Source: Enterobacteria phage ECP2307. From it: DNA of 64,000 bases. Position 1 is the first letter of the stretch, and each line of letters starts with the position of its first letter. The notes beneath the pieces are model-generated. The model ran no database searches, had not been told where the DNA came from, and saw nothing but the letters and a program-made list of their open reading frames with translations. The position numbers and the translations under genes are program-made. The stretch lies in the sequence record PP461118.1. One strand, written 5' to 3'. This document shows, piece by piece, positions 50,110 to 50,203 of the stretch.

Positions 50110-50203
50110 TGAAAGAGGTCTGAAGTTGTGCCGCTAACTCAACTCCGTGGAATTTGTTACGGTCTTCAGTTGACACCAGCGGTCTTTCACTTGACCTCTG
50201 AAT
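50110..50203. other. 94-nt structured non-tRNA element between tRNA-Val and tRNA-Thr
   Basis: Closed by a 7-bp helix AGAGGTC...GACCTCT with internal hairpins (GGTC...GACC, CCGT...ACGG); no T-loop, so not a canonical tRNA. Confidence 0.3.

What the first reader, a model, noticed from the sequence alone, without database searches (positions are those of the whole stretch)
50110..50203. 94-nt stem-closed structured element occupying a tRNA-sized slot
tRNA-Val and tRNA-Thr are separated by exactly one tRNA-length gap, but it has no T-loop motif. Instead it is closed by a 7-bp helix (AGAGGTC...GACCTCT) with three internal hairpins. It could be a degenerate or noncanonical tRNA, a small stable RNA co-processed with the tRNAs by RNase P/RNase E, or a processing decoy.
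Basis: seen in the sequence. Interest (0 to 1): 0.6.

Follow-up and report, generated by a model that had tools for sequence, protein, structure and literature searches.

The report
Conserved RNA rod in phage tRNA operon
The 95-base gap between two tRNA genes of this Felix-O1-like phage holds a conserved hairpin-shaped RNA that is not a tRNA and is most likely a small stable RNA cut out with the tRNAs, like the unexplained RNAC and RNAD of phage T4.

Summary
The window is a Felixounavirus. Its 26-tRNA array lies on the minus strand. The gap 50109-50203 between tRNA-Thr and tRNA-Val is real, and the 7-bp closing helix is real. The interior is one irregular rod with four to five helices, not three hairpins. 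It matches no tRNA model and none of 4227 Rfam families.

The element is single-copy. It is present in about 253 Ounavirinae records and six Avunavirus records. It is as conserved as the flanking tRNA genes. A 27-nt apical stretch is invariant in every version read. Between the two subfamilies the closing helix shows one G-C to U-A compensatory change, but covariation overall is thin.

My best reading (confidence about 0.5) is a stand-alone small RNA, co-transcribed with the tRNAs and released by tRNA processing. Its apical bulge and loop would be a recognition site for a trans-factor. The function remains unknown.

It is probably not the partner of the neighbouring Ro60-fold protein. That role fits a different RNA family I found in the same array, with the layout stem, CAGCAA, stem. 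This family accompanies DUF2828 genes in seven phage lineages and mirrors Dictyostelium Class I RNAs. Avunavirus carries the element but has neither that gene nor those RNAs.

The parts
50109..50203 (-). The whole element: a 95-nt spacer RNA between the 3' CCA of tRNA-Thr and the 5' end of tRNA-Val. It folds as an unbranched rod.
   Evidence: The covariance model R1 finds a single copy in the window at 120 bits.
50193..50199 (-). P1 5' arm, AGAGGUC (RNA nt 5-11).
   Evidence: The pair G8-C87 becomes U-A in Avunavirus, a compensatory change.
50114..50120 (-). P1 3' arm, GACCUCU (RNA nt 84-90).
50178..50182 (-). P2 core 5' arm, CCGCU (RNA nt 22-26). It pairs with AGCGG at 50131-50135.
   Evidence: Four of the five pairs never vary.
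50148..50174 (-). Invariant apical block GUCAACUGAAGACCGUAACAAAUUCCA (RNA nt 30-56). It comprises the P3 5' arm, the 5-nt bulge GAAGA, the P4 5' arm CCGU, the loop AACAAAUUCC and the first base of the P4 3' arm.
   Evidence: The block is identical in all versions read, covering Ounavirinae, Avunavirus and the divergent metagenome contig L197. A difference-free run of 27 nt, given 16 differences in 86 positions between the window and Av-05, has permutation p = 0.019.
50139..50147 (-). The remaining three bases of the P4 3' arm (CGG; the full arm ACGG is 50145-50148) and the P3 3' arm (AGUUGA, 50139-50144), which close the apical hairpin.
   Evidence: Substitutions here are wobble-type: C57U gives G-U and A60G gives U-G.
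50204..50279 (-). tRNA-Thr(tgt), directly upstream. Its encoded CCA abuts the element.
50034..50108 (-). tRNA-Val(tac), directly downstream. RNase P cleavage at its 5' end would define the 3' end of the element (inference).
   Evidence: The RNase P role follows from established tRNA biology.

Best explanation
The gap encodes a real, selectively maintained, rod-shaped small RNA of about 86-95 nt on the minus strand. It is made as part of the long tRNA-operon transcript. It is set free as a by-product of tRNA maturation in two steps. RNase P cutting at the 5' end of tRNA-Val makes its 3' end. Endonucleolytic or exonucleolytic 3' maturation of tRNA-Thr, possibly with RNase P acting on the acceptor-like 7+4-bp terminal helix, makes its 5' end. 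The closing helix then shields both ends, so the RNA persists. It acts in trans, and the working part is the invariant apical hairpin (P3, bulge GAAGA, P4, loop AACAAAUUCC), which I read as a docking site for a protein or other factor.

It is neither a tRNA nor a member of the CAGCAA/Y-RNA-like family that sits in the same array.

Shown: the anatomy, conservation, distribution, single-copy status, and the absence of tRNA or Rfam identity. Inferred: transcription, processing, stability and trans action.
For: The tRNA array and the element share one strand. No terminator-like site lies on that strand between 53000 and 47567, and promoter-like sites lie at 53023, 52932 and 51502.

The fold has z = -2.9. 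RNAalifold recovers the same rod on 23 distinct versions. Of all pair cells, 97.4% form standard pairs, against 25-43% when the 3' partners are slid by 1-3 columns.

Two pairs show changes on both sides, and five pairs change only to G-U wobble in the minus-strand sense.

Across 29 Ounavirinae haplotypes the mean pairwise difference is 0.028 for the element and 0.007 for its apical part. The corresponding values are 0.146 for tRNA-Thr, 0.077 for tRNA-Val and 0.009 for tRNA-Gly.

The apical 27 nt are invariant between two phage subfamilies that otherwise differ at 16 of 86 positions (p = 0.019). They are also invariant in the divergent contig L197. Conservation of loop and bulge sequence argues for specific recognition rather than for a mere spacer hairpin.

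Precedents exist. [quoted passage not shown] D. radiodurans Yrn2 is made on one precursor with a tRNA (PMC4201824).
Against: No expression data for any Felixounavirus were found.

Covariation is weak. The RNAalifold covariation term is only -0.24 kcal/mol, and both double changes come from a single lineage split.

Several substitutions break pairs: A5U in Mooglevirus, U81C, G59A in wV8, and A65C in TH18. P1 shrinks to 5 bp in L197. P1b is not kept in Avunavirus.

Both strands fold equally well.

No partner or target was identified. Complementarity of the apical region to other parts of the window is at chance level.

High identity among Ounavirinae may partly reflect recent common ancestry.
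Confidence: 0.5

Rival explanations
1. A cis-acting processing or insulating spacer. In this view the hairpin is an RNase III, RNase E or RNase P entry site, or a folding insulator. It would help separate the tightly packed tRNAs, or in Avunavirus separate the tRNA part of the transcript from the downstream mRNA. The excised piece would have no function of its own.
For: The element sits exactly between processed units. In Av-05 it lies between tRNA-Gly and the orf75/DUF7338 mRNA, followed by a small hairpin. It is an irregular rod of about 30 bp with internal loops, which resembles phage RNase III sites (my knowledge of the T7 early region). The basal helices tolerate mismatches.
Against: Most other tRNAs in the array are separated by only 1-8 nt and need no such spacer. 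Strict invariance of a 10-nt loop and a 5-nt bulge across subfamilies is more than a cleavage hairpin should require.
Confidence: 0.2
2. A rod-type Y RNA, analogous to YrlB or Yrn2, that binds the phage Ro60-fold protein encoded 2.8 kb upstream.
For: The 471-aa ORF at 53042-54457(-) has a Ro60 fold. The model has pLDDT 89, and the top ten PDB hits are all Ro60, with TM up to 0.65. The element lies within 4 kb on the same strand, is 95 nt long and is closed by its 5' and 3' ends. These are the criteria of PMC4201824. Bacteria have one long-hairpin Y RNA beside the tRNA-like one. The apical GAAGACCGU...ACGG resembles the stem of the CAGCAA RNAs in the same array.
Against: Av-05 carries the element but has no DUF2828/Ro-like gene (tblastn over the whole genome gives E > 4). 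A different RNA family tracks the DUF2828 gene in seven lineages, and the element lacks its CAGCAA motif and its AAG/CUGU ends. It has no GNCGAA or GGUCCGA motif. It has no YrlA or Y_RNA model hit.
Confidence: 0.1
3. An evolutionary relic without function. It would be a decayed tRNA or a decayed CAGCAA-type RNA that hitch-hikes inside a block of useful genes.
For: It moved between Ounavirinae and Avunavirus as part of a block. The block comprises tRNA-Gly (about 85% nt identity by eye), the element (83%), phrog_14202 and DUF7338 (80.6% aa identity). The basal helices accumulate mismatches.
Against: It is as conserved as the tRNA genes, and its apical part is more conserved than most of them. 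The invariant run is non-random. It shows no residual tRNA signal. No lineage among the Ounavirinae read here has lost it.
Confidence: 0.1
4. A DNA-level signal rather than an RNA, such as a homing-endonuclease target, a promoter or origin piece, or a coding remnant.
For: The + strand carries a perfect TTGACA at 50170-50175. The + strand of the apical part reads GICYGLQL, an amidotransferase active-site-like motif. The 21-mer hits six bacterial MAG contigs. Homing endonuclease genes are inserted nearby in some relatives.
Against: No -10 element follows the TTGACA, and the scan reports no promoter there. Single-base indels among relatives break any reading frame. The MAG hits are coding sequences that share only the 21-mer, and the covariance model does not match them. 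The palindromic architecture and the wobble-type substitutions fit an RNA.
Confidence: 0.05

Closest known systems
Phage T4 RNAC and RNAD (stable RNA species 1 and 2 of the T4 tRNA region)
   Same: They are small non-tRNA RNAs encoded inside a phage tRNA cluster on the tRNA strand. They are detected as discrete species, and their function is unknown after decades (PMC3014915, PMC9697503).
   Different: There is no sequence relation. No Straboviridae record is among the 259 blastn hits. This element is a shorter, unbranched rod. Its expression and processing are only inferred.
Rod-type bacterial Y RNAs (S. Typhimurium and M. smegmatis YrlB, D. radiodurans Yrn2)
   Same: They are long hairpins closed by their 5' and 3' ends and encoded within a few kb of a Ro60-type gene on the same strand. 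Yrn2 is co-transcribed with a tRNA (PMC4201824).
   Different: The element lacks the GNCGAA(N)G or GGUCCGA motif. It matches no model. It also occurs in Avunavirus phages that have no Ro60-like gene.
CAGCAA stem-closed RNAs of the same array (Class-I-like and YrlA-like; window 51902-52704)
   Same: They share the same operon and strand and are stem-closed. They share the 9-mer GAAGACCGU followed later by ACGG. The layout is also shared: an outer helix, a purine bulge, then an inner helix.
   Different: The element has no CAGCAA motif and no (A/U)AG...CUG(U) termini. Its loop is only 10 nt. It does not co-occur with the DUF2828 gene in Avunavirus.
RNase III processing hairpins between genes of phage polycistronic transcripts (for example the T7 early region; my knowledge)
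   Same: They are irregular hairpins of some tens of base pairs, with internal loops, that sit exactly between units to be separated.
   Different: The loop and bulge sequence is invariant here. No cleavage data exist. Neighbouring tRNAs are separated without such hairpins.

Membership tests
tRNA (canonical or long-arm class II) | A cloverleaf recognised by tRNA finders or covariance models. | tested here: not met
   ARAGORN makes no call. Rfam tRNA gives no hit at E<=10, even when only 113 nt are searched.
tRNA (canonical or long-arm class II) | A T-arm with a GTTCRANYC-type loop, and an encoded or addable 3' CCA after a discriminator base. | tested here: not met
   Read from the sequence. 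There is no T-loop. The 3' tail is UUUCAU, whereas the neighbouring tRNAs that were read encode CCA.
tRNA (canonical or long-arm class II) | A 7-bp terminal, acceptor-like helix. | tested here: met
   AGAGGUC/GACCUCU. This is the only tRNA-like trait.
Y RNA (Ro60 partner; criteria of PMC4201824) | Encoded within about 4 kb of a Ro60-type gene, on the same strand. | tested here: inconclusive
   Met in the window: the Ro60-fold ORF is at 53042-54457(-), 2.8 kb upstream. Not met in Av-05, which has the element but no such gene.
Y RNA (Ro60 partner; criteria of PMC4201824) | 80-130 nt, with a long stem formed by the 5' and 3' ends. | tested here: met
   95 nt, folding as a terminally closed rod.
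Y RNA (Ro60 partner; criteria of PMC4201824) | A Ro-binding motif in the 5' strand: GNCGAAN0-1G in bacteria or GGUCCGA in metazoa. | tested here: not met
   The 5' strand reads GAGGUCAAGUGAAAG in the window and GAUGUCAAUGAAAU in Av-05. Neither contains CGAA.
Y RNA (Ro60 partner; criteria of PMC4201824) | A match to the YrlA or Y_RNA covariance models, or a tRNA-like domain. | tested here: not met
   No hit at E<=10.
Y RNA (Ro60 partner; criteria of PMC4201824) | Physical association with the Ro60 protein. | not testable with these tools
   This needs RIP, CLIP or EMSA.
CAGCAA stem-closed RNAs linked to DUF2828 genes (resembling Dictyostelium Class I RNA, RF01414) | A CAGCAA motif 1-4 nt after the 5' stem strand, and (A/U)AG...CUG(U) flanks. 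| tested here: not met
   The signature scan finds four copies in the array, and this element is not among them. The loop is AACAAAUUCC.
CAGCAA stem-closed RNAs linked to DUF2828 genes (resembling Dictyostelium Class I RNA, RF01414) | Co-occurrence with a DUF2828 gene. | tested here: not met
   Av-05 has the element but no DUF2828 gene. CAGCAA signatures in Av-05 are at chance level.
Phage tRNA-operon small stable RNAs (T4 RNAC/RNAD kind) | A non-tRNA RNA gene embedded in the phage tRNA cluster on the tRNA strand. | tested here: met
   The element is conserved in about 259 records.
Phage tRNA-operon small stable RNAs (T4 RNAC/RNAD kind) | Accumulates as a discrete processed species in infected cells. 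| not testable with these tools
   No Felixounavirus small-RNA data were found.
Phage tRNA-operon small stable RNAs (T4 RNAC/RNAD kind) | Sequence homology to T4 RNAC or RNAD. | tested here: not met
   blastn in 'distant' mode against 50,697 phage records finds only Ounavirinae and Avunavirus.
Known self-cleaving ribozymes, riboswitches or sRNAs in Rfam 15 | A covariance-model match. | tested here: not met
   The only hits are two chance snoRNA fragments, at 16 bits or less, on the opposite strand.

The most novel reading that the evidence does not exclude
The rod is a second, non-canonical RNA ligand of the phage Ro60-fold (DUF2828) protein, or of a host RNA-binding factor. Its invariant GAAGA bulge, CCGU/ACGG helix and loop would be a stripped-down version of the stem module of the CAGCAA RNAs. 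It would then be a portable decoy or tether RNA that phages exchange together with tRNA genes, and the Avunavirus copy would act through a host factor.
Probability: 0.1. Interest if true: 0.7.

Novelty: new member of a known kind. Interest (0 to 1): 0.45.

Why it matters
Phage tRNA clusters are now studied as counter-defence tools against tRNA-cleaving immunity. The non-tRNA RNAs embedded in them have been ignored since T4 RNAC and RNAD were described. This element is a clean, single-copy, strongly conserved example in a therapeutically used phage genus (Felixounavirus). It has a short invariant hairpin that can be mutated or used as bait.

The locus also gives a concrete way to find the RNA partners of the uncharacterised DUF2828 Ro60-fold proteins. 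Those partners may connect phage RNAs to the orphan Class I RNAs of Dictyostelium.

Tried and rejected
tRNA or pseudo-tRNA. ARAGORN and the Rfam tRNA and tRNA-Sec models are negative.

Any Rfam family, including ribozymes, 6S, Y_RNA and YrlA. Negative at E<=10.

Paralogues. Covariance model R1 finds a single copy in the window and in Av-05. It finds nothing in FBKp34, KVP40 or RB43, or in 100 pattern-derived IMG/VR loci apart from one further Felixounavirus contig.

Wider homologues.
- Three IMG/VR pattern scans, one metagenome scan and one genome scan were run.
- They added only Felixounavirus-like and Avunavirus-like contigs and one divergent Ounavirinae contig, L197.
- The six bacterial MAG hits are amidotransferase-type coding sequences that share only the 21-mer (GICYGLQ read on the opposite strand) and are unrelated.

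Coding potential. The 60-aa ORF at 50099-50281 and the ORFs annotated as 'hypothetical protein' in some records overlap tRNAs. Indels break their frames.

sRNA target search. Complementarity of the apical 37 nt within the window is at chance level. The 9-mer match to the anticodon arm of tRNA-Arg(UCU) is within chance.

Link to tRNA-Thr. Justusliebigvirus has a 96%-identical tRNA-Thr but no element.

Link to DUF7338. RB43-type phages have the gene but not the element.

Insertion hot spot. The 109-bp insertion in pinkbiff lies between tRNA-Arg and tRNA-Leu, not at the element.

Technical failures. The single-sequence AlphaFold model of the Ro-like ORF was useless (pLDDT 45). The afdb50 fold library was unavailable. 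MAFFT misaligned the 5' part of the Av-05 copy, so a model-guided alignment was used instead.

Full report
WHAT THE WINDOW IS. Megablast of 49900-50400 gives 99.6% identity to Escherichia phage JN01 and to about 300 other records, nearly all Felixounavirus and other Ounavirinae. ARAGORN finds 26 tRNA genes, all on the minus strand, between 47699 and 52876. Rfam confirms 23 of them. The finding lies between tRNA-Thr(tgt) at 50204-50279 and tRNA-Val(tac) at 50034-50108. The gap is 50109-50203, 95 nt. The relevant RNA is the reverse complement of the window strand.

THE OBSERVATION.
- The 7-bp helix AGAGGUC/GACCUCU exists. It closes the RNA four bases after the CCA of tRNA-Thr and five bases before tRNA-Val.
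- The minimum-free-energy structure is -30.7 kcal/mol, against -20.2 +/- 3.7 for dinucleotide shuffles (z = -2.9).
- The structure is not a three-hairpin junction. It is one rod: P1 (7 bp), a 2-nt bulge, P1b (4 bp), an internal loop, P2 (about 5 bp), P3 (6 bp), a 5-nt bulge GAAGA, P4 (4 bp) and the loop AACAAAUUCC.
- The opposite strand folds equally well. The strand is therefore assigned from context and from wobble substitutions.
- There is no tRNA signal and no match to any of 4227 Rfam families, even when only 113 nt are searched at E<=10.

DISTRIBUTION AND CONSERVATION.
- blastn finds the element in 259 phage records. About 253 are Ounavirinae (Felixounavirus, Mooglevirus, Suspvirus), always between tRNA-Thr and tRNA-Val. 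Six are Avunavirus (Vequintavirinae: Av-05, TH18, 24-2-1) at about 82% identity.
- In Avunavirus the element follows tRNA-Gly(tcc). After it come a small hairpin and two ORFs.
- Those ORFs belong to phrog_14202 and to phrog_2143/DUF7338. The same two genes lie downstream in the window, after three extra tRNAs. DUF7338 is 80.6% identical in protein. A multi-gene block was therefore exchanged between the two subfamilies.
- The element is not tied to tRNA-Thr. Justusliebigvirus has a 96%-identical tRNA-Thr without it.
- It is not tied to DUF7338 in T4-like phages either.
- A covariance model (R1) finds exactly one copy per genome and no relatives in FBKp34, KVP40 or RB43.
- Pattern scans of IMG/VR, metagenomes and bacterial genomes added only more Felixounavirus-like and Avunavirus-like contigs and one divergent Ounavirinae contig, L197.
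- Six bacterial MAG hits to the 21-mer are coding sequences. The opposite strand there reads GICYGLQ, an amidotransferase-like motif. They are unrelated.

IS IT UNDER SELECTION?
- Across 29 distinct Ounavirinae haplotypes, the mean pairwise difference is 0.028 for the element from P1 to P1 and 0.007 for its apical 37 nt. The values for the flanking genes are 0.146 (tRNA-Thr), 0.077 (tRNA-Val) and 0.009 (tRNA-Gly).
- Between the window and Av-05 there are 16 differences in 86 aligned positions, yet 27 consecutive apical nucleotides (GUCAACUGAAGACCGUAACAAAUUCCA) are identical. A permutation test gives p = 0.019.
- The same block is intact in L197, where the basal stem has decayed.
- The loop and bulge are thus conserved as sequence, not only as structure.

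IS THE STRUCTURE SUPPORTED?
- On a model-guided alignment of 23 distinct versions, 97.4% of pair cells are standard pairs. When the 3' partners are slid by 1-3 columns the figure is 25-43%.
- RNAalifold recovers the rod independently.
- Only two pairs change on both sides: G8-C87 to U-A in P1, and G20-C74 to A-U. Both arise from the single Ounavirinae/Avunavirus split.
- Five pairs change only to G-U in the minus-strand sense. Several changes break pairs: A5U, U81C, G59A and A65C. P1b is lost in Avunavirus. P1 is 5 bp in L197.
- The structure is therefore compatible with the data and thermodynamically favoured, but it is not proven by covariation. The basal half looks like a tolerant supporting stem and the apical hairpin like the functional core.

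TRANSCRIPTIONAL CONTEXT. On the minus strand, promoter-like sites lie at 53023, 52932 and 51502 (the last matches 11 of 12 consensus positions). No terminator-like site occurs until 47567-47517. The element is thus very probably transcribed with the tRNAs (inference). Most tRNAs in the array are only 1-8 nt apart, so a 95-nt structured spacer is an exception, not a necessity.

THE Ro60 LEAD, AND WHY I DO NOT FILE THE ELEMENT UNDER IT.
- A preprint on phage Bas63 notes that a Felixounavirus protein upstream of the tRNAs looks like Ro60. It speculates that some 'tRNAs' are Y RNAs (PMC11482910).
- I confirmed the fold. The 471-aa ORF at 53042-54457(-) carries Pfam DUF2828+DUF7788 and PHROG 'RNA-binding protein'. 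Modelled with 45 homologues, it reaches pLDDT 89.
- Its ten best PDB matches are all Ro60: Thermus phage phiLo, Xenopus, human and Deinococcus, with TM up to 0.65. There is no sequence-level hit.
- The element meets the positional and size criteria for Y RNAs (PMC4201824). It lacks the Ro-binding motif and any model match.
- Av-05 carries the element without any DUF2828 homologue (whole-genome tblastn).
- A different RNA family tracks the Ro60-fold gene. Four elements in the same array (51902-52029, 52047-52121, 52482-52537, 52636-52704, minus strand) share the layout (A/U)AG, a 5-6-bp stem, 1-4 nt, CAGCAA, a variable insert, the stem, then CUG. Their stems covary.
- The same signature lies directly beside the DUF2828 gene on the same strand in six further phages. 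These are FBKp34 (Klebsiella), KVP40 (Vibrio), CPX (Campylobacter), LP-064 (Listeria), Snenia (Mycobacterium) and LAh_6 (Aeromonas). Each has between one and seven copies.
- The background rate in 0.94 Mb of unrelated viral loci is 0.008 per kb-strand, and Av-05 is at chance level.
- One FBKp34 copy encloses a permuted tRNA-like domain and scores 39.6 bits (E = 8e-8) against Rfam YrlA.
- The short copies align end to end with the Rfam Dictyostelium Class I RNA model. The scores are 13-18 bits, below gathering.
- The published signature of Class I RNAs is an AAG start, a short terminal stem, an 11-nt motif containing CAGCAA next to the 5' stem strand, and a CUGU end (PMC7919456). The phage RNAs share this.
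- These CAGCAA RNAs are the obvious candidate partners of the Ro60-fold protein. The finding's element has neither the motif nor the termini.
- The element does share the 9-mer GAAGACCGU plus ACGG with their stem. I regard this as a possible trace of common origin and nothing more.

MOST LIKELY MECHANISM. The element is a stand-alone small RNA released from the tRNA precursor. RNase P at tRNA-Val fixes its 3' end, which follows from established tRNA biology. 3' maturation of tRNA-Thr frees its 5' end. RNase P may also act on the 7+4-bp acceptor/T-stem-like terminal helix, as it does on other hairpin substrates. The closed ends protect the RNA. The invariant apical bulge-helix-loop is read by a factor common to infections by both phage groups, so probably a host or widely shared phage protein. 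All of this beyond the anatomy and conservation is inference. I give it about 0.5. The rivals are a purely cis-acting processing hairpin (0.2), a rod-type Y RNA (0.1), a functionless relic (0.1) and a DNA-level signal (0.05).

COMPARISON AND NOVELTY. The closest known things are T4 RNAC and RNAD, small RNAs from the T4 tRNA region whose role is still unknown (PMC3014915, PMC9697503). The element works like that kind but is not homologous to them. It is not a tRNA, not a recognisable Y RNA and not a Class-I-like RNA. I file it as a new member of a known kind, of moderate interest.

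Noticed in passing
window 51902-52029, 52047-52121, 52482-52537, 52636-52704 (minus strand); also L044 8530-8813, L045 623-739 and 6964-7007, L184 4865-5016, L185 4622-4885, L186 6462-6720, L187 3989-4958: A family of stem-closed RNAs of about 50-130 nt has the layout (A/U)AG, a 5-6-bp covarying stem, 1-4 nt, CAGCAA, a variable insert, the stem, then CUG(U). It lies next to the DUF2828 (Ro60-fold) gene, on its strand, in seven unrelated phage lineages. The background rate is 0.008 per kb-strand in 0.94 Mb of other viral DNA. These RNAs are strong candidates for the RNA partners of DUF2828 proteins, that is, a new Y-RNA-like class. No Rfam family reaches its gathering score.
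   Followed up: yes
window 52482-52535 and 51902-52027; L044 8689-8726: The CAGCAA RNAs align end to end with Rfam RF01414, the Dictyostelium Class I RNA model, at 13-18 bits, below the gathering score. They share its published signature: an AAG start, a short terminal stem, a motif containing CAGCAA right after the 5' stem strand, and a CUGU end. Class I RNAs were reported as unique to dictyostelids. I recall Pfam describing DUF2828 as also eukaryotic. Whether Dictyostelium has such a protein was not checked.
   Followed up: partly
window 53042-54457 (minus): A 471-aa ORF immediately upstream of the tRNA array carries Pfam DUF2828+DUF7788. The AlphaFold model has pLDDT 89, and its ten best PDB matches are all Ro60. 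There is no sequence-level similarity to TROVE or Ro60. Homologues occur in 709 phage records. In the six further phage loci examined they lie beside or within a few kb of tRNA genes (not seen in LAh_6), and RNA-ligase or RtcB genes are nearby in LP-064 and LAh_6.
   Followed up: yes
window 51902-52029 (minus); L044 8687-8813: The longest CAGCAA copy encloses a circularly permuted tRNA-like domain: a T arm GAAGGUUCGAUUCCUUC, a closed acceptor-like hairpin CUCGGC/GUCGAG, and D-arm-like sequence. This is the YrlA layout. The FBKp34 counterpart scores 39.6 bits (E = 8e-8) against Rfam YrlA. The window copy gives only a 22-bit tRNA hit.
   Followed up: partly
window 50611-50702, 51756-51899, 50976-51050, 51271-51576: Other long inter-tRNA gaps also hold structured sequence. 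There is a hairpin with 27-nt arms and a pair of 22-nt arms 100 nt apart. There is a weak tRNA-Sec-like hit (23 bits) and weak tmRNA-like hits (16-29 bits). A near-consensus promoter-like site (TTGACA, 17 nt, TATAGT) lies at 51502-51474 inside the array.
   Followed up: no
L001 about 1670-1745 (minus strand; Av-05 between tRNA-Tyr and tRNA-Gly): A tRNA-shaped sequence with ends GGGAGUG...CACUCCCACCA has a normal D arm and a GAU anticodon loop, but its T loop is aberrant (GGCAGAG). ARAGORN misses it. A 10-bp hairpin (CUGUACUGGC/GCCAGUACAG) precedes it.
   Followed up: no
window 49059-50361 versus Av-05 L041 5598-6567: Ounavirinae and Avunavirus share a mosaic block: tRNA-Gly(tcc), the element, phrog_14202 and DUF7338/phrog_2143 (80.6% aa identity). 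In Ounavirinae, tRNA-Thr and three further tRNAs are inserted. This is evidence for exchange of tRNA-operon segments between phage subfamilies.
   Followed up: partly
L180 1583-1741 (phage RB43): About 140 nt of apparently stem-closed non-coding sequence (GGGUGCUGG...CCCAGCCCAC) directly follows tRNA-Ile, about 0.9 kb upstream of the RB43 DUF7338 gene. It may be another small RNA attached to a tRNA.
   Followed up: no
window 50148-50168 (+ strand reading); L188-L193: The + strand of the invariant apical block would read GICYGLQL, a class-I amidotransferase active-site-like motif. The exact 21-mer therefore hits six bacterial MAG contigs inside coding sequence. I judged this a coincidence.
   Followed up: yes
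GenBank GU169904.1 (hits H16, H47, H133): The 147-kb record named 'Staphylococcus phage SA1' contains a region 98-99% identical to this Escherichia/Salmonella Felixounavirus tRNA region. This suggests a chimeric or contaminated database record.
   Followed up: no
window 51235-51243 versus 50159-50167: The 9-mer GAAGACCGU is shared by the element and the CAGCAA RNAs. It is the exact complement of ACGGUCUUC in the anticodon stem-loop of the phage tRNA-Arg(UCU). In FBKp34 the 3' strands of the CAGCAA RNAs read CUUCUG, which is like that anticodon loop. The stems of these RNAs may descend from a tRNA-Arg anticodon arm.
   Followed up: no
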